Part shown: one piece after another, positions 34,817 through 41,101 of the stretch
Numbering within the stretch: the first letter of the stretch is position 1
How the letters are laid out: the number at the start of each line of letters is the position of its first letter
Sequence record: NC_000866.4
Source of the DNA: Escherichia phage T4
Length of the DNA: 64,000 nucleotides
Strand: one strand, 5' to 3'
Program-made: the position numbers and the translations under genes
The notes under the pieces: generated by a model
Databases searched by the model: none
What the model saw: the letters and a program-made list of their open reading frames with translations, nothing else
What the model was told of the DNA's origin: nothing

Positions 34817-35064
34817 TTAGAATCCTTAAATTTACATTTATCATAATGCCATCTTAAAGCATTGCCTTTATTAACTTTCTTACCACAGTGCGGGCAAGGT
34901 GGATACTCTGCTCCTTGTTTAGTTCTCAAAGAAATCAAATCACGGGTTTCTTTAGTATGAGGAACATCTCTTGTCGGAGAAATTGTACCATACATCGGAT
35001 TAAGCACGCCGACTTTAGCAGCAGCTATATTCTTTTTAGCTTCTTCAGTTTTAGGCTTTCTCAT
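34813..35064 (-). CDS. small Zn-ribbon / NUMOD-like protein (nrdA.1-type position)
   Basis: 83-aa ORF with CPHCGKK and TKETRDLISLRTKQG motifs resembling homing-endonuclease DNA-binding modules. Confidence 0.5.
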   Translation of the reverse strand: MRKPKTEEAKKNIAAAKVGVLNPMYGTISPTRDVPHTKETRDLISLRTKQGAEYPPCPHCGKKVNKGNALRWHYDKCKFKDSK

Positions 35065-35087
35065 CTTTTTCTTAGGTTTCTTCGCTT

Positions 35088-35513
35088 TTAGCCCTTCCTT
35101 TGGTTGCCGCCGATATTTTGTGTTTGGTTTCTTCTGTTAAACGCAGACCTGTTTTCGCTTTTTGACATTTTCAGTCTCGTTTCTTCAGAAATGACCGTAC
35201 CTTTGCGAAATTGCGAATTTAACTTCTTTGCATGGGCATATATTTTAGAATGAACTTTATAATGACGTTTCTTAGTTCCTTTCATATTGCACATCATGAA
35301 AAATGCGAATATAACAGATTTTACCGGATAAATCTTTGATAAAATAGCATGCGCTATAAAATGCTCTCTAGCTGTTAATTCAACTAAATTTTCTTTATCA
35401 TCAGAACCTCCCATGCATCTAGGGATTATATGATGTGTCTCTTTATATTCGGATAAAGGTTCCCGAGCCTGAGCTCGGGAAATTAGGTCGTTATAGATTT
35501 TTTGATAATTCAT
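35088..35513 (-). CDS. mobE: HNH homing endonuclease (MobE-like)
   Basis: 141-aa ORF with HNH motif HHIIPRCMGGSDDKENLVELTAREH; lies between nrdA and nrdB. Confidence 0.8.
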   Translation of the reverse strand: MNYQKIYNDLISRAQAREPLSEYKETHHIIPRCMGGSDDKENLVELTAREHFIAHAILSKIYPVKSVIFAFFMMCNMKGTKKRHYKVHSKIYAHAKKLNSQFRKGTVISEETRLKMSKSENRSAFNRRNQTQNIGGNQRKG

Positions 35514-37777
35514 TACAATTTACACGCTGCACAATCATCGGCTTTAGGAGTTTCTATTTCATAATCATCAGTACCAGAACCATCACGGGTATTATGATAA
35601 TAGAAATTTTTAATGCCATAATACCATCCGTATAGCATGTCATCAATCATTATTGACATTGGAACCTTTCCTTTTGGAAAAATCTGCGGGTCATAATATG
35701 TATTCGCTGAAGCTGATTGACATACCCATTTCAGCATAATAGCTACCTGCGTAAGATAAGGTTTATTACCTTTCTTAGCTAATTTCCATGTATAATCATA
35801 GAGGTCTATGTTATGCTCAATATTGGGCACGACTTGATTAAAGGAACCCTCTTTTGATTCTTTAACACTTACCGGTCCACGTGGAGGCTCGTAGCCGTTT
35901 GTACTGTTAGAAACTTGGGAAGATGACTCACATGGCATAAGTGCTGATAATGTGCTATTACGGATGCCAAATAGCTTAAGGTCTTCCCGCAGCGCCGACC
36001 AGTCACAAACGTATTTTGGAGCTGCGATTTGGTCAATCTTTTTATTGTACCAGTCGATAGGTAATTCGCCTCGAGACCAACGAGTGTCTGAATAATATTC
36101 CGAAGGTCCTTTTTCTTTGGCGAGCTTAATGGATGCTTTAATGAGTCCATACTGTAATCTCTCAAATAGTTCATGTGTTAAATCGTTAGCATCTTCATAA
36201 GAAGCAAAGTTACTTGCCAGCCAAGCTGCATAGTTGGTAACACCTACACCGAGGTTACGACGCTTTTTAGCTTTTTCTGCTTCAGGAACCGGATATCCTT
36301 GGTAATCCAACAGATTATCAAGAGCACGAACTTGAACTTCTGCCAATTCATTAATTTTATCTTGGTCTTGCCAGTCAAAATTATCTAATACGAATGCAGA
36401 GAGAGTACACAATCCAATTTCAGCATCAGGGCTATTCACATCATTTGTTGGAATAGCAATTTCACAGCACAAGTTACTCTGACGAATAGGTGCCTTTTCA
36501 CGAATAAACGGAGTATAGTTATTCGTATTATCAATGAACTGCACATAAATCCTTGCTGTTCCTGAACGTTCAGTCATGAGCAATTCAAATAGTTCACGGG
36601 CTTTAATACGCTTTTTACGAATATTAGGGTCTTTTTCTGCTGCTTCGTATAATTCACGGAAACGGTCTTGGTCTTTAAAATAAGAATAATAAAGCTCGCC
36701 ACCCATTTCATGCGGACTGAACAAAGTAATGTAATCGTTTTTTCCAAAACGTTCCATCATCAAATCATTCAGTTGAACACCATAATCCATATGACGAATG
36801 CGGTTTTCTTCTACGCCTTTGTTATTTTTCAAAACGAGAAGATTTTCAACTTCCAAATGCCAAATAGGATAATAAGCAGTAGCAGCGCCGCCACGAATTC
36901 CACCCTGTGAACATGATTTAACTGCAGTCTGAAAATGTTTCCAAAAAGGAATAACACCAGTATGGCGTACTTCACCCATGCCAATCTTAGAACCTTCGGC
37001 ACGAATCATACCAACGTTAATACCAATTCCAGCGCGTTTAGAGATATATTCAACAATTGAAGCAGAAGCCTTATTGATAGACTTCAATGAATCTCCTGCC
37101 TCAATAACAACACATGAACTAAACTGTCGAGTCGGAGTACGACAACCAGCCATAATAGGAGTTGGCAATGAAATCTGTCGAGTTGATACTGCTTCATAAA
37201 AACGGATAACATGTTTTAATCTATCAACAGGTTCATCTTGATGCAGTGCCATTCCAATAGTCATAAATGCAAACTGTGGAGTTTCATAAATTTGACCAGT
37301 GGTTTTATCTTTAACTAGATATTTTTCTTTTAATTGCATTGCCCCGGAATAAGTAAATTCCATATCCCGTTCGTGCTTAATTTTTGATTCTAAAAATGTA
37401 ATTTCTTCTGCTGAATATTTTGACAATAATTCAGGGTCGTATTTACCTGCATTTACACAATAAGAAATATGGTCAATAAATGAACGTGGTTCATACTGCC
37501 CATAAACATGCTTACGAAGAGCAAACATTAAACAGCGTGCAGCTACATATTGATAATCAGGTTCTTCAACCGAAATAGAATTCGCAGCAGCCTTAATGAC
37601 AATAGTCTGAATATCATCAGTTGTCATTCCATCACGGAGATAAGATTTAATATTTTCATATAATTCATAAGGATCTACTGATGTTCCTTCAGCTGCCCAA
37701 GATAAAACTTTAATAATTTTTTGTGGGTCAAAGCTCTGAGAAACACCACTACTTTTGATAACATTAATTAATTGCAT
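35513..37777 (-). CDS. nrdA: Ribonucleotide reductase large subunit NrdA
   Basis: 754-aa ORF with ATP-cone N-terminus and class I RNR catalytic motifs; C-terminal CAACKL tail. Confidence 0.95.
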   Translation of the reverse strand: MQLINVIKSSGVSQSFDPQKIIKVLSWAAEGTSVDPYELYENIKSYLRDGMTTDDIQTIVIKAAANSISVEEPDYQYVAARCLMFALRKHVYGQYEPRSFIDHISYCVNAGKYDPELLSKYSAEEITFLESKIKHERDMEFTYSGAMQLKEKYLVKDKTTGQIYETPQFAFMTIGMALHQDEPVDRLKHVIRFYEAVSTRQISLPTPIMAGCRTPTRQFSSCVVIEAGDSLKSINKASASIVEYISKRAGIGINVGMIRAEGSKIGMGEVRHTGVIPFWKHFQTAVKSCSQGGIRGGAATAYYPIWHLEVENLLVLKNNKGVEENRIRHMDYGVQLNDLMMERFGKNDYITLFSPHEMGGELYYSYFKDQDRFRELYEAAEKDPNIRKKRIKARELFELLMTERSGTARIYVQFIDNTNNYTPFIREKAPIRQSNLCCEIAIPTNDVNSPDAEIGLCTLSAFVLDNFDWQDQDKINELAEVQVRALDNLLDYQGYPVPEAEKAKKRRNLGVGVTNYAAWLASNFASYEDANDLTHELFERLQYGLIKASIKLAKEKGPSEYYSDTRWSRGELPIDWYNKKIDQIAAPKYVCDWSALREDLKLFGIRNSTLSALMPCESSSQVSNSTNGYEPPRGPVSVKESKEGSFNQVVPNIEHNIDLYDYTWKLAKKGNKPYLTQVAIMLKWVCQSASANTYYDPQIFPKGKVPMSIMIDDMLYGWYYGIKNFYYHNTRDGSGTDDYEIETPKADDCAACKL

Positions 37778-38094
37778 AAGTCCTCAACTTGAAAATCGTC
37801 TTTAAACAATCGGTTAACTATATGAGCTATTATATCACCATGACACGGCTTTGGTTTACATGTGCATCCTAGCCTCATTCCACGTAAAGGCTCTAAATGT
37901 GCTTTAGTTATTTCTCCGGATTTAATTCGACGTATAAAATCTTTTTTGAATAATTCAATGGCAGCCTCCCGGCTGCCAGCATCTTTACCGACGTAATTTC
38001 CCCAAAATGTACCGCGGTGAATATTAACATCAAAGTCGGATTTATATTTATTCACTACCCGGCATAGACGGCCCACGCTGGAATAATTCGTCAT
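37768..38094 (-). CDS. hypothetical Cys/His-containing protein
   Basis: 108-aa ORF, ATG verified; motif [11 protein letters not shown]. Confidence 0.55.
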
Positions 38095-38311
38095 ATTGTT
38101 TTTCCGTTAAAACAGTAATATCGTAGTAACAGTCAGAAGAAGTTTTAACTGTGGAAATTTTATTATCAAAATACTCACGAGTCATTTTATGAGTATAGTA
38201 TTTTTTACCATAAATGGTAATAGGCTGTTCTGGTCCTGGAACTTCTAACTCGCTTGGGTTAGGAAGTGTAAAAAGAACTACACCAGAAGTATCTTTAAAT
38301 CGTAAAATCAT
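38048..38311 (-). CDS. hypothetical protein
   Basis: 87 aa from ATG at 38311 with GAGGA ribosome-binding site; track ORF begins at upstream TTG. Confidence 0.55.
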
Positions 38312-38331
38312 ATATCCTCGCAATAATAAAA

Positions 38332-38643
38332 TTACACCGCCATCTTTCCTTTAATAGGAGGGTGTGATACATAGTTGTTAAGAACGAAATCTTTAGGCCT
38401 AAGTTTAAGAACATATTTTAATTGTTCTTTAGTAGAAAGATATCGGAATTTATAAGGTAGACCACTTATTACCAGCTCACAAAGCTCTTTAGGTTCACGC
38501 CTCAAAATTTCTTTACATTGTTCTACGTGATTCATATAGATATGAGTATTACCACCAGAAAATATCAAATCCCCTGGAATAAGATTACACATCTTAGCTA
38601 CAATATGAACTAACGTAGCATATGACGCAATATTAAACGGTAG
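38332..38643 (-). CDS. td: Thymidylate synthase, exon 2
   Basis: C-terminal thymidylate synthase sequence [11 protein letters not shown]...; the ATG at 38644-38646 is the last 3 nt of the intron. Confidence 0.9.
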
Positions 38644-39660
38644 CATTATGTTCAGATAAGGTCGTTAATCTTACCCCGGAATTATATCCAGCTGCATGTC
38701 ACCATGCAGAGCAGACTATATCTCCAACTTGTTAAAGCAAGTTGTCTATCGTTTCGAGTCACTTGACCCTACTCCCCAAAGGGATAGTCGTTAGGCATTT
38801 ATGTAGAACCAATTCCATTTATCAGATTTTACACGATAAGTAACTAATCCAGACGAAATTTTAAAATGTCTAGCTGCATCTGCTGCACAATCAAAAATAA
38901 CCCCATCACATGAAATCTTTTTAATATTACTAGGCTTTTTACCTTTCATCTTTTCTGATATTTTAGATTTAGTTATGTCTGAATGCTTATGATTAAAGAA
39001 TGAATTATTTTCACCTGAACGATTTCTGCATTTACTACAAGTATAAGCAGAAGTTTGTATGCGAACACCGCACTTACAAAACTTATGGGTTTCTGGATTC
39101 CAACGCCCGTTTTTACTTCCGGGTTTACTGTAAAGAGCTTTCCGACCATCAGGTCCAAGTTTAAGCATCTTAGCTTTAACAGTTTCAGAACGTTTCTTAA
39201 TAATTTCTTCTTTTAATGGATGCGTAGAACATGTATCACCAAACGTTGCATCAGCAATATTGTATCCATTAATTTTAGAATTAAGCTCTTTAATCCAAAA
39301 ATTTTCTCGTTCAATAATCAAATCTTTCTCATATGGAATTTCTTCCAAAATAGAACATTCAAACACATTACCATGTTTGTTAAAAGACCTCTGAAGTTTT
39401 ATAGAAGAATGGCATCCTTTTTCTAAATCTTTAAAATGCCTCTTCCATCTCTTTTCAAAATCTTTAGCACTTCCTACATATACTTTATTGTTTAAAGTAT
39501 TTTTAATCTGATAAATTCCGCTTTTCATAAATACCTCTTTAAATATAGAAGTATTTATTAAAGGGCAAGTCCTACAATTTAGCACGGGATTGTCTACTAG
39601 AGAGGTTCCCCGTTTAGATAGATTACAAGTATAAGTCACCTTATACTCAGGCCTCAATTA
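38644..39660 (-). mobile_element. Group I self-splicing intron in td (about 1.0 kb) carrying I-TevI
   Basis: intron begins UAAUUGAGGCCUGAGUAUAAGGUGACUUAUACUUG right after exon 1 and ends ...AACAUAAUG before exon 2. Confidence 0.92.
38791..39528 (-). CDS. I-TevI: Intron-encoded GIY-YIG homing endonuclease I-TevI
   Basis: 245 aa from ATG at 39528, N-terminus MKSGIYQIKNTLNNKVYVGSAKDFEKRWKRH; track ORF extended 43 codons upstream into intron sequence. Confidence 0.93.
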   Translation of the reverse strand: MKSGIYQIKNTLNNKVYVGSAKDFEKRWKRHFKDLEKGCHSSIKLQRSFNKHGNVFECSILEEIPYEKDLIIERENFWIKELNSKINGYNIADATFGDTCSTHPLKEEIIKKRSETVKAKMLKLGPDGRKALYSKPGSKNGRWNPETHKFCKCGVRIQTSAYTCSKCRNRSGENNSFFNHKHSDITKSKISEKMKGKKPSNIKKISCDGVIFDCAADAARHFKISSGLVTYRVKSDKWNWFYINA

Positions 39661-40802
<1,142 letters not shown>

Positions 40803-40858
40803 TTAATTGAAAACGAATGCTTACTTGGATAATTTCAATGACATACATAATATTTTCC

Positions 40859-41101
40859 TCAAACAGACTTTTTCACAATTTTCCAATCAGCTTTAAACTG
40901 CTCGACGTCAGAATGGTAAATCCAAAATCCTGCGCTTTCTCCGTCTTCATAAAGAGGACATCCATCGCATTCATCTTCCCATCCCATATCACGTAAAAGA
41001 TGTTCAGCTTTTTCAACAAGTTCAGAATCTTTACCGATGATATTAAAATACCATTTACCTCTAACTTCTGAATCTTTGATGCTCTGGCGTTGTAATCTCA
41101 T
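40859..41101 (-). CDS. hypothetical protein (frd.1 position)
   Basis: 80-aa ORF. Confidence 0.55.
   Translation of the reverse strand: MRLQRQSIKDSEVRGKWYFNIIGKDSELVEKAEHLLRDMGWEDECDGCPLYEDGESAGFWIYHSDVEQFKADWKIVKKSV

What the first reader, a model, noticed from the sequence alone, without database searches (positions are those of the whole stretch)
37768..38311. Two overlapping small ORFs between td and nrdA, one with a Cys/His cluster
A 108-aa ORF carrying [11 protein letters not shown] and an 87-aa ORF with a good ribosome-binding site fill the td-nrdA gap. I do not recognise either protein. Their position inside the nucleotide-metabolism operon (frd-td-nrdA-nrdB) suggests an accessory role in dNTP synthesis or a moron.
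Basis: inference. Interest (0 to 1): 0.35.

Follow-up and report, generated by a model that had tools for sequence, protein, structure and literature searches.

The report
Phage T4 genes nrdA.1 and nrdA.2
The two small overlapping reading frames are the long-annotated phage T4 genes nrdA.2 and nrdA.1: real, expressed, conserved but dispensable genes whose biochemical function is still untested.

Summary
The window is phage T4 (100% identity). The finding's coordinates run exactly from the stop of nrdA.1 to the start of nrdA.2.

- **nrdA.1:** 108 aa, window 37768-38094, minus strand, Pfam DUF4326.
- **nrdA.2:** 87 aa, window 38048-38311, minus strand, Pfam DUF5496.
- **Evidence that both are genes:** they are under purifying selection and conserved in hundreds of T4-like phages. 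Published proteomics detected both proteins. Published knock-down of either gene gave no fitness defect.
- **NrdA.1 family:** it is a stand-alone copy of a very large viral and bacterial domain family. The predicted fold is confident, but no solved structure resembles it convincingly. The CxCxPxxCH motif is invariant across the family.
- **Domain partners and neighbours:** in longer proteins the domain is fused mainly to SLOG, NADAR, Macro and TIR domains. In T4-like phages the gene stays in the frd-td-nrdA-nrdB cluster. In RaK2/121Q-like jumbo phages it lies between nrdD and nrdG.
- **Best reading (inferred):** NrdA.1 binds or processes a ribose-phosphate or nucleotide-derived small molecule and is co-expressed with ribonucleotide reductase. 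It is useful only under some conditions.
- **NrdA.2:** a small acidic protein confined to Tevenvirinae, with no catalytic signature. It occurs independently of nrdA.1.

The genes are already known and of low interest.

The parts
38048..38311 (-). nrdA.2 coding sequence (87 aa, 10.1 kDa, pI 5.4). Pfam DUF5496, PHROG 2458.
   Evidence: ORF. Annotated as nrdA.2 in T4T and as gene 'Y' in GenBank J03968. Pfam E=2e-63. dN/dS 0.2-0.3. Protein detected by MS.
38316..38319 (-). Shine-Dalgarno GAGG of nrdA.2, 4 nt upstream of the ATG and 12 nt after the td stop codon (38334-38332).
   Evidence: Read directly from the sequence.
37768..38094 (-). nrdA.1 coding sequence (108 aa, 12.4 kDa, pI 9.2). Stand-alone DUF4326 domain, PHROG 464.
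   Evidence: ORF. Annotated as nrdA.1. Pfam 78.7 bits against a cut-off of 25. 72 close homologues and 10,675 cluster representatives with the profile. dN/dS 0.09-0.16. AF2 pLDDT 91. Protein detected by MS.
38048..38094 (-). 47-nt out-of-frame overlap of the nrdA.2 3' end with the nrdA.1 5' end. It encodes the variable N-terminal extension [10 protein letters not shown] of T4 NrdA.1.
   Evidence: Coordinates. Other genera start at M-x-x-C with a 1-4 nt TAATG/ATGA-type overlap. The only SD-like sequence before ATG 38094 is a weak GGA.
37834..37866 (-). Codons for C77-T-C79-K-P81-K-P-C84-H85-G86-D87, the family-defining Cys/His motif. In the model it lies at the junction of strand 74-77 and helix 85-96.
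   Evidence: C77, C79 and C84 are invariant in 94/94 diverse members. H85 is present in 93/94, P81 in 93/94 and D87 in 89/94. Secondary structure.
37768..37785 (-). nrdA.1/nrdA junction. The nrdA Shine-Dalgarno GAGG (37785-37782) and ATG (37777-37775) lie inside the 3' end of nrdA.1, giving a 10-nt overlap with the nrdA.1 stop at 37770-37768.
   Evidence: Sequence. RBS annotated in J03968. Abutting or overlapping DUF4326-nrdA junctions in most T4-like loci.
37959..37978 (-). G+C-rich RNA hairpin UGGCAGCC-GGGA-GGCUGCCA inside nrdA.1 (codons for AGSREAA). The 1988 record annotates it as a stem-loop upstream of the nrdA promoter.
   Evidence: J03968 stem_loop 467-486. Folding gives -16.7 kcal/mol, z = -3.5. 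The stem is kept in Karamvirus Ecl04 and altered in other genera.
37931..38052 (-). nrdA regulatory signals annotated by the 1988 depositors inside nrdA.1: late-promoter-like TATAAATC (38046-38039, annotated as 38052-38039), -35 TTGAAT (37958-37953) and -10 TATACG (37936-37931). Transcripts starting here would lack the nrdA.1 start codon.
   Evidence: GenBank J03968 features converted with w = 38445 - r. Hexamers read. The generic sigma-70 scan did not pick them out above shuffled background. Not verified experimentally here.

Best explanation
**Shown.** The two frames are phage T4 genes nrdA.2 and nrdA.1. Both are protein-coding, expressed during infection and under purifying selection. Both are dispensable in a laboratory host.

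**Inferred for NrdA.1.**
- It is a stand-alone DUF4326 domain: a compact alpha/beta module.
- Its invariant residues are N15, D22, R27, N33, R42, C77, C79, C84, H85 and D87. By secondary-structure position they fall at or just after the C-terminal ends of the two modelled strands and at helix N-termini.
- That arrangement is the usual layout of a pocket for a phosphate-bearing ligand.
- The most likely function is to bind or process a ribose-phosphate or nucleotide-derived small molecule, such as an ADP-ribose derivative or a related (deoxy)nucleotide metabolite.
- The CxCxPxxCH cluster could be a zinc knuckle that shapes the pocket. Alternatively it could be a PTP/rhodanese-like catalytic cysteine loop, as Burroughs, Aravind and co-workers proposed.
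- In T4 the gene is translated from the early frd-td-nrdA polycistronic message. Its 3' end overlaps the nrdA start, so it is made together with ribonucleotide reductase.
- Its benefit is conditional, for example counter-defence or nucleotide salvage, rather than core dNTP synthesis.

**Inferred for NrdA.2.** It is a separate, small, acidic, probably beta-rich protein. It lacks conserved catalytic-type residues and is confined to Tevenvirinae. It is most likely a binding or modulator protein for a phage or host partner.

The identification is near certain. The confidence given below applies to the mechanistic reading of NrdA.1.
For: **Identity.** 100% DNA identity to T4 with nrdA.1 and nrdA.2 annotated. 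Pfam DUF4326 and DUF5496 matches.

**Reality of the genes.**
- dN/dS values.

**Dispensability.** CRISPRi-ART gene fitness is -0.12 and -0.35, both scored 'Not Fit' (PMC11879866 supplement). Frameshifted nrdA.1 copies occur in some close relatives.

**Domain logic.** Of 43 multi-domain DUF4326 proteins, partners are mSLOG 7, YAcAr-SLOG 6, NADAR 5, DprA-like 4, and Macro, TIR and NADAR-DarT1 1 each. This independently reproduces the published contextual inference (PMC7824862, PMC9503650).

**Neighbourhoods.**
- Inside the frd/td/nrdAB cluster in 45 of the 80 loci kept from a viral-contig scan, in three different positions.
- Between nrdD and nrdG in RaK2/121Q-like jumbo phages.
- Next to NAMPT and a CCA-adding enzyme, a dATP/dGTP diphosphohydrolase, or an NTP hydrolase in other lineages.
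- Near PNKP, RNA ligases, Thg1 and RlaP elsewhere.

**Structure.** The AF2 model has pLDDT 91 and pTM 0.83. Its strand(74-77)-Cys loop-helix(85-96) layout is shared with viral family members at TM 0.6-0.87.

**Separability of nrdA.2.**
Against: - No biochemical or genetic phenotype exists for either protein.
- The phosphate-pocket reading rests on secondary-structure order and conservation. It does not rest on inspected coordinates.
- The loop lacks the CX5R arginine of PTP/Cdc25 enzymes.
- All three cysteines plus the histidine are invariant. That pattern is more typical of a structural zinc site or a redox relay than of a single nucleophile.
- T4 NrdA.1 is not fused to any ADP-ribose-related domain. 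Its own neighbours are dNTP-synthesis genes, which favours the RNR-accessory rival.
- Neighbourhood counts were not corrected for phylogeny. Straboviridae count as essentially one lineage.
Confidence: 0.45

Rival explanations
1. RNR/dNTP accessory factor. NrdA.1 would act directly on ribonucleotide reduction or in the T4 dNTP-synthetase complex. It could be a zinc/thiol protein that helps assemble, reduce or regulate the reductase. NrdA.2 would be a second small subunit or adaptor of the complex.
For: DUF4326 lies immediately upstream of nrdA, with its stop overlapping the nrdA start, in 32 of the 80 loci kept. It lies directly after nrdB in 5 loci and directly after td in 8. In RaK2/121Q-like jumbo phages it lies between nrdD and nrdG, a different RNR class. 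It has three invariant cysteines. NrdA.1 protein accumulates with the same kinetics class as NrdA and NrdB.
Against: 33 of the 80 loci (12 clusters at 60% identity) carry DUF4326 with no RNR or td gene within 8 kb. Several phage families place it among replication, RNA-repair or NAD-salvage genes. Fusion partners are SLOG, NADAR, Macro and TIR, and never RNR subunits or thioredoxin-like domains. It has no CxxC motif, and no thioredoxin-fold hit was seen among the structure matches. Some Mosigviruses have the same operon without nrdA.1. Class Ia and class III reductases use different reductants and activation chemistry, so a shared protein cofactor is not obvious (established knowledge).
Confidence: 0.2
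2. Non-catalytic zinc-binding module. C77, C79, C84 and H85 would chelate one zinc ion. The basic 12-kDa protein would bind nucleic acid or a protein partner as a regulator, for example of nrdA expression or of a host factor.
For: All four candidate ligands are invariant and the protein has pI 9.2. There is a weak but repeated local match of LGCxCxPxxCHGDVLA to the Cys-rich motif of ComFB (PDB 4wai), with E 0.65-0.78 in two profile searches. That ComFB binds zinc through this motif is recalled from the literature, not checked here. Some fusions are to DNA polymerase A, RNase H and RNA polymerase.
Against: The ComFB match is not significant and covers only about 20 residues. Adjacent Cys-His ligands are unusual for a single zinc site. 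Other invariant polar residues (N15, D22, R27, N33, R42, D87) outside the Cys cluster look like an active or ligand site. The dominant fusion partners are small-molecule-processing domains.
Confidence: 0.15
3. Dispensable cargo. The two ORFs would be hitch-hiking small genes in a recombination-prone gap next to mobile elements (I-TevI, mobE), with no role that benefits the phage.
For: The content of the td-nrdA gap varies between genera: one gene, the other, both, reversed order, or unrelated small ORFs. Knock-down has no phenotype. Frameshifted copies occur in some relatives.
Against: nrdA.1 shows strong purifying selection and is retained from Aeromonas, Acinetobacter and Vibrio T4-like phages through to T4. 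The family is very large, with invariant residues. Both proteins are made. nrdA, nrdB, td and frd are also 'Not Fit' in the same screen, so lack of a phenotype is uninformative. Neither protein matches a nuclease or mobility domain.
Confidence: 0.05
4. The nrdA.1 stretch would not be a gene but only the regulatory leader of nrdA (promoters and stem-loops), as the 1988 GenBank record implied.
For: J03968 annotates a late promoter, two stem-loops and -35/-10 hexamers there, and no CDS. A strong hairpin is present.
Against: There is a Pfam match at E=5e-22. Protein-level conservation extends down to 35-50% identity, with dN/dS about 0.1. The AF2 fold is confident. The protein is detected by MS. 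Regulatory signals and coding sequence can coexist in the same DNA.
Confidence: 0.01

Closest known systems
Pfam DUF4326 (PF14216), PHROG 464; T4 NrdA.1 itself (UniProt P32279)
   Same: Full-length match at 78.7 bits. All family-invariant residues are present. The predicted fold matches other viral members. It is the T4 member of the family.
   Different: Nothing structural. The T4 clade adds a conserved C11 and, in Tequatrovirus, a 10-residue N-terminal extension encoded in the overlap with nrdA.2. The family has no experimentally determined function.
Pfam DUF5496 (PF17600), PHROG 2458; T4 NrdA.2 itself (UniProt P32280)
   Same: Full-length match at 210.8 bits. Homologues with 35-39% identity in Mosigvirus and Gaprivervirus also pass the Pfam threshold.
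   Different: Nothing. The family consists essentially of this protein's orthologues in Tevenvirinae and has no known function.
Rhodanese / Cdc25 / PTP ('rhodanese-phosphatase') superfamily, proposed parent of DUF4326 in PMC9503650
NADAR (YbiA-like N-glycosidases, PF08719)
   Different: Profile-profile comparison gives 0.2% probability. NADAR has no Cys motif and is about 160 residues. Occurrence as two separate domains in one protein argues for distinct roles.
ComFB (PDB 4wai) Cys-rich motif
   Same: Local C-x-C-x(2-4)-C followed by an (N/G)DVLA helix start.

Membership tests
Pfam DUF4326 (PF14216) | HMM score above the curated gathering threshold (25 bits) over the whole domain | tested here: met
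   78.7 bits, E=5.5e-22, residues 11-90 on profile positions 1-81 of 82.
Pfam DUF4326 (PF14216) | Family-invariant residues: VVN, D..I.R(G)..WGNP, LGCxCxPxxCHGD | tested here: met
   V14, N15, D22, I25, R27, G32, N33, L70, L75, G76, C77, C79, P81, C84, H85, G86 and D87 are all present. Frequencies in 94 diverse members are.
Pfam DUF4326 (PF14216) | Same predicted fold as other members | tested here: met
   Foldseek against BFVD: 18 hits at E<=1e-3. All those that carry a name are DUF4326 proteins of phages, archaeal viruses and giant viruses or DUF4326 fusions. TMq is 0.56-0.87.
Pfam DUF5496 (PF17600), for NrdA.2 | HMM score above the gathering threshold (27 bits) | tested here: met
   210.8 bits, residues 1-87 on profile 1-87.
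Rhodanese / Cdc25 / PTP superfamily | Significant structural similarity of the alpha/beta core | tested here: inconclusive
Rhodanese / Cdc25 / PTP superfamily | Active-site signature C-X5-R (phosphatases) or a 6-residue Cys loop (sulfurtransferases) between a strand and a helix | tested here: not met
   The loop is C77-T-C-K-P-K-P-C84-H85, with no arginine at the loop end. The strand-loop-helix placement is present.
Rhodanese / Cdc25 / PTP superfamily | Cysteine-dependent phosphatase or sulfurtransferase activity | not testable with these tools
   Needs purified protein and substrate assays.
NADAR (PF08719) | Sequence-profile homology to NADAR | tested here: not met
   hhalign of the DUF4326 alignment (94 sequences) against a NADAR alignment (33 sequences): probability 0.2%, 8 aligned columns. 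There is no Pfam NADAR hit.
Thioredoxin/glutaredoxin-type RNR reductants (NrdC/NrdH-like) | CxxC motif in a thioredoxin fold | tested here: not met
Homing endonucleases / mobile ORFs (like the neighbouring I-TevI and MobE) | GIY-YIG, HNH or LAGLIDADG domain | tested here: not met
   The only Pfam matches are DUF4326 and DUF5496. NCBIfam and PADLOC give none.
Known anti-phage defence system proteins (PADLOC) | Match to any PADLOC model | tested here: not met
   No hits at E<=1 for either protein.

The most novel reading that the evidence does not exclude
NrdA.1 (DUF4326) would be a structurally unprecedented, cysteine- or zinc-dependent enzyme that phages insert into ribonucleotide-reductase operons of two different classes. 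It sits between td and nrdA, or after nrdB, in Straboviridae. It sits between nrdD and nrdG in RaK2/121Q-like jumbo phages. Its job would be to remove or convert a ribose-phosphate metabolite. That metabolite could be a host immune nucleotide or ADP-ribose signal, or a toxic or limiting nucleotide by-product. This would link dNTP supply to counter-defence. The recurrent RNR linkage has not, to my knowledge, been pointed out in the papers read here, which stress NAD/ADP-ribose contexts.
Probability: 0.25. Interest if true: 0.55.

Novelty: already known. Interest (0 to 1): 0.22.

Why it matters
As a finding it adds nothing to the T4 map. Both genes have been annotated for decades, and both protein families are in Pfam.

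The residual interest is general. DUF4326 is one of the larger uncharacterised domain families of the virus world: 10,675 cluster representatives at 50% identity, found in phages, archaeal viruses, giant viruses and bacteria. It has a confident predicted fold with no convincing solved relative. It also has an invariant Cys/His motif and consistent links to nucleotide and ADP-ribose biology.

T4 NrdA.1 is a 108-residue stand-alone copy in the best-studied phage. It is non-essential and known to be expressed, so it is a convenient entry point for working out what the family does.

Tried and rejected
**Structure and fold searches**
- A single-sequence AF2 run on NrdA.1 gave an unusable model (pLDDT 51) and consumed one of the two structure jobs. 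None was left for NrdA.2.
- The afdb50 fold library was not available.

**Sequence searches with no result**
- PDB sequence searches with single proteins and profiles: nothing significant.
- NCBIfam and PADLOC: no hits.
- Rfam on window 35000-41000: no hits.
- No paralogue of either protein in the 64-kb window.

**Hypotheses tested and dropped**
- The PHROG hit 'ribonucleotide reductase NrdA-like' (phrog_24867, E=1e-6) covers only residues 37-100. I regard it as a mis-named family, probably named after its neighbouring gene. It is not evidence of RNR homology.
- The automatic label 'putative prohead core scaffold protein' in two phage records has no support.
- I looked by eye for a MotA-box middle promoter in the region and found no convincing match.

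**Locus and record retrieval problems**
- The search for related loci failed with the diverse alignment A2 because it had no conserved stretch. It worked with A4.
- The look-up of encoding contigs gave only short contigs.
- T4 reference records AF158101 and NC_000866 are not in the collection.

**Literature**
- The Miller et al. 2003 T4 review is not held.
- A search for 'nrdA.2' found no paper. A search for 'nrdA.1' found only two incidental mentions.
Full report
**1. What is in the sequence**

Two ORFs fill the gap between td exon 2 and nrdA on the minus strand. Td exon 2 stops at 38334-38332 and the nrdA ATG is at 37777.
- The first ORF is 87 aa, from ATG 38311 to TAA 38050-38048. It has a GAGG 4 nt upstream of its ATG.
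- The second is 108 aa, from ATG 38094 to TAA 37770-37768. It is preceded only by a weak GGA.
- They overlap by 47 nt in different frames.
- The 108-aa ORF also overlaps nrdA by 10 nt. The nrdA Shine-Dalgarno (GAGG, 37785-37782) lies inside it.
- The motif [11 protein letters not shown] is at residues 77-87.

**2. Identity**

The stretch 37400-38700 is 100% identical to phage T4 and its laboratory derivatives, and 95-99% identical to several hundred Tequatroviruses.
- In T4T the ORFs are annotated nrdA.1 (108 aa) and nrdA.2 (87 aa). They lie between td (with its I-TevI intron) and nrdA, followed by mobE and nrdB.
- NrdA.1 matches Pfam DUF4326 (78.7 bits, cut-off 25) and PHROG 464.
- NrdA.2 matches Pfam DUF5496 (210.8 bits) and PHROG 2458.
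- The 1988 GenBank entry for nrdA (J03968) annotated only nrdA.2, as gene 'Y'. It treated the nrdA.1 stretch as nrdA regulatory DNA, with a late promoter, two stem-loops, -35/-10 hexamers and the RBS.
- Transcripts from those internal promoters would lack the nrdA.1 start. NrdA.1 must therefore be translated from the longer message coming from upstream (inference).

**3. Are they genes?**

Yes, on four lines of evidence.
- NrdA.1 has 72 close cluster representatives, and tblastn finds matches in 1959 phage records.
- NrdA.2 is found in 671 phage records: 499 at >=80% identity and 172 below 60%. The low-identity relatives inspected are Mosigvirus and Gaprivervirus phages at 35-39% protein identity.
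- Codon-level comparison shows synonymous sites saturated while non-synonymous divergence stays low. For nrdA.1, pN is 0.11-0.23 against pS 0.63-0.85, with dN/dS about 0.09-0.16 where it can be computed. For nrdA.2, dN/dS is about 0.2-0.3.
- A published time-resolved proteome and transcriptome of T4 infection lists both proteins as detected. NrdA.1 is 'early RNA / late protein', the same class as NrdA and NrdB. NrdA.2 is 'early RNA / middle protein', the same class as Td (PMC9697503, supplementary files 4 and 6).

A published transcriptome-wide dCas13d knock-down screen scored both genes 'Not Fit', with gene fitness -0.12 and -0.35. The same screen gave that score to nrdA, nrdB, td and frd (PMC11879866, supplementary file 15). 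The two genes are therefore dispensable on a laboratory host.

Consistent with this, some close relatives carry frameshifted nrdA.1 copies at a G-run and an A-run. These may be real or may be homopolymer sequencing errors.

**4. The two genes are not a unit**

The td-nrdA gap varies among Tevenvirinae.

| Phage group | Content of the gap |
|---|---|
| Tequatrovirus | nrdA.2 then nrdA.1 |
| Mosigvirus PhAPEC2 and JK36 | nrdA.2 only |
| Mosigvirus SA35RD | both |
| Dhakavirus Bp7 | nrdA.1 only |
| Gaprivervirus P479 | both, in reverse order |
| Karamvirus, Klebsiella phage Roth80 | an unrelated small ORF, then DUF4326 |

Outside Tequatrovirus, nrdA.1 starts at M-x-x-C with a 1-4 nt stop/start overlap. 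The 47-nt overlap and the [10 protein letters not shown] extension are Tequatrovirus-specific.

**5. NrdA.1 and the DUF4326 family**

- **Family size.** A profile of the T4-like clade retrieves 10,675 representatives of 50%-identity clusters at E<=1e-3. Most are stand-alone proteins of about 100 aa.
- **Conservation.** In 94 diverse members, N33, L70, C77, C79 and C84 are invariant. V14, N15, D22, I25, R27, G32, L75, G76, P81, H85, G86 and D87 are conserved at >=90%. C11 is conserved only in the T4 clade.
- **Model.** With this alignment AF2 gives a confident model (pLDDT 91, pTM 0.83). Its elements are strand 12-15, a long conserved loop, helices 42-59 and 64-70, strand 74-77, the Cys loop 78-84 and helix 85-96.
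- **Viral structures.** Against predicted viral structures the model hits essentially only DUF4326 proteins or DUF4326 fusions from phages, haloarchaeal viruses, pandoraviruses, pithoviruses and marseilleviruses.
- **NADAR.** A direct profile-profile test against NADAR is negative, at 0.2% probability.

**6. Functional context**

*Fusions.* Among 43 longer proteins containing the domain, the partners are:
- mSLOG (7), YAcAr-type SLOG (6), NADAR (5) and DprA-like SLOG (4);
- Macro, TIR and DarT1-associated NADAR (1 each);
- singletons of DNA polymerase A, RNase H and RNA polymerase;
- tandem DUF4326 repeats.

This reproduces, from independent data, the contextual inference of the Aravind group. 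[quoted passage not shown] They predicted that it processes terminal phosphates on the ribose of ADP-ribose derivatives (PMC7824862, PMC9503650). A 2025 preprint notes C-terminal DUF4326 on giant-virus homologues of the SLOG-like anti-Avs protein ORF83. No paper found reports an experiment on the domain.

*Neighbourhoods in the 80 loci kept from a viral-contig scan*.

| Arrangement | Loci |
|---|---|
| frd-td-(x)-DUF4326-nrdA-nrdB | 32 |
| td-nrdA-nrdB-DUF4326 (as in phages annotated Pseudotevenvirus) | 5 |
| nrdD-DUF4326-nrdG in genomes of 345-348 kb | 2 |
| None of these genes adjacent (12 clusters at 60% identity) | 33 |

In the last group the neighbours include:
- NAMPT plus a CCA-adding enzyme;
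- a dATP/dGTP diphosphohydrolase;
- a 5'-3' exonuclease plus a primase-helicase;
- PNKP, RNA ligases, Thg1, RlaP and a TIR protein.

Individually inspected isolates show the same spread.

The theme is nucleotide metabolism in the broad sense. The RNR linkage is striking in two virus groups but is not general.

**7. Mechanism**

What is shown: the family membership, the invariant residues, the confident fold, the fusion partners and the operon position.

What is inferred:
- The invariant polar residues fall at or near the C-terminal ends of the two modelled strands and at helix N-termini. That is the usual place for a phosphate-binding pocket. I could not inspect coordinates, so this rests on secondary-structure order.
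- The strand-Cys-loop-helix arrangement resembles the PTP/rhodanese active site. It lacks the CX5R arginine.
- The joint invariance of three cysteines and a histidine fits a structural zinc knuckle or a thiol relay at least as well.
- A weak, non-significant local match to the Cys-rich motif of ComFB points the same way.

I therefore commit only to 'binds or processes a ribose-phosphate or nucleotide-derived small molecule, made together with RNR, conditionally useful', at about 0.45. I leave zinc site versus catalytic cysteine open.

The rivals are a direct RNR/dNTP accessory (0.2), a non-catalytic zinc-binding regulator (0.15), dispensable cargo (0.05) and the refuted 1988 non-coding view.

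**8. NrdA.2**

- It is 87 aa with pI 5.4.
- Its conserved residues are mostly hydrophobic, Gly or Pro: L3, F5, G10, F14, P25, P27, I31, G35, Y47, Y62, I65, V67 and Y73.
- It also conserves R4, E21, R45 and T66. No Cys or His is conserved.
- There is no remote homology in Pfam, PDB, NCBIfam or PADLOC.
- The hydrophobic pattern suggests a small beta-rich domain with a C-terminal helix (inference).
- My best guess is a binding or modulator protein.

**9. Verdict**

The feature is already known: annotated T4 genes belonging to existing Pfam families. Its biochemical function remains untested. The only mildly new point is the recurrence of DUF4326 inside RNR operons of two classes, which deserves a phylogeny-corrected test.

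Noticed in passing
L006:3983-4309 (Escherichia phage UE-S1); also L072 and L093: In RaK2/121Q-like jumbo phages the DUF4326 gene sits between the anaerobic reductase gene nrdD and its activase nrdG, and its start abuts the preceding ORF. This links the domain to a second RNR class in a phage family unrelated to T4. Here nrdD also appears split: a 120-aa 'pyruvate formate-lyase' fragment follows a 175-nt gap.
   Followed up: partly
window 37959-37978 (minus strand): A strong 8-bp G+C-rich hairpin (UGGCAGCC-GGGA-GGCUGCCA, -16.7 kcal/mol, z -3.5) lies inside the nrdA.1 coding sequence, just upstream of the -35/-10 hexamers annotated for nrdA in 1988. The stem is kept in a Karamvirus and replaced by a different, weaker stem in Mosigvirus SA35RD. 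Its role (processing site, attenuator or mRNA stabiliser) is unknown.
   Followed up: partly
L023 (phage PD112); proteins P0028, P0045, P0072: Several close T4 relatives carry nrdA.1 copies disrupted by frameshifts at the TTTTGGGG and CAAAAAAG homopolymer runs. In some, the alternative-frame 41-aa ORF is fused to the C-terminal half. These could be sequencing errors or real gene decay or phase variation.
   Followed up: no
L017:1883-2746 (Escherichia phage P479, Gaprivervirus): The order of the two genes is reversed relative to T4 (td, a 65-aa ORF, the nrdA.1 homologue, the nrdA.2 homologue, nrdA). The td-nrdA gap therefore behaves as a small recombination hot-spot.
   Followed up: partly
L056-L062 and L075 (IMG/VR contigs of 161-235 kb; sizes match Aeromonas phages 25, 44RR2.8t and Aeh1): DUF4326 directly follows td, but no nrdA or nrdB lies within 8 kb downstream. 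In these phages the gene travels with frd-td rather than with the reductase.
   Followed up: no
L078:5915-10277: In an 85-kb uncultivated phage contig a 157-aa DUF4326 ORF is flanked by a nicotinamide phosphoribosyltransferase and a CCA-adding/HD enzyme, with nrdD-nrdG 6 kb upstream. This puts NAD salvage, tRNA repair and RNR in one neighbourhood.
   Followed up: partly
P0123 (681 aa, from the representative search): The architecture is a SLOG-like N-terminus, then DUF4326, then TIR and a long C-terminal region. It looks like a bacterial defence effector, so DUF4326 may be used on both the host and the virus side of conflicts.
   Followed up: no
window 38647-39657 and 35088-35513 (minus strand): The finding is flanked by two mobile elements: the td group I intron carrying I-TevI, and the free-standing HNH endonuclease gene mobE between nrdA and nrdB. 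Rfam did not recognise the td intron at E<=0.1.
   Followed up: no
window 37768-38094: PHROG 24867, annotated 'ribonucleotide reductase NrdA-like', matches NrdA.1 residues 37-100 at E=1e-6. It is almost certainly a DUF4326-containing family named after its neighbour. Similarly, 'putative prohead core scaffold protein' is attached to nrdA.2 or nrdA.1 in some GenBank records. Both are annotation artefacts that can propagate.
   Followed up: partly
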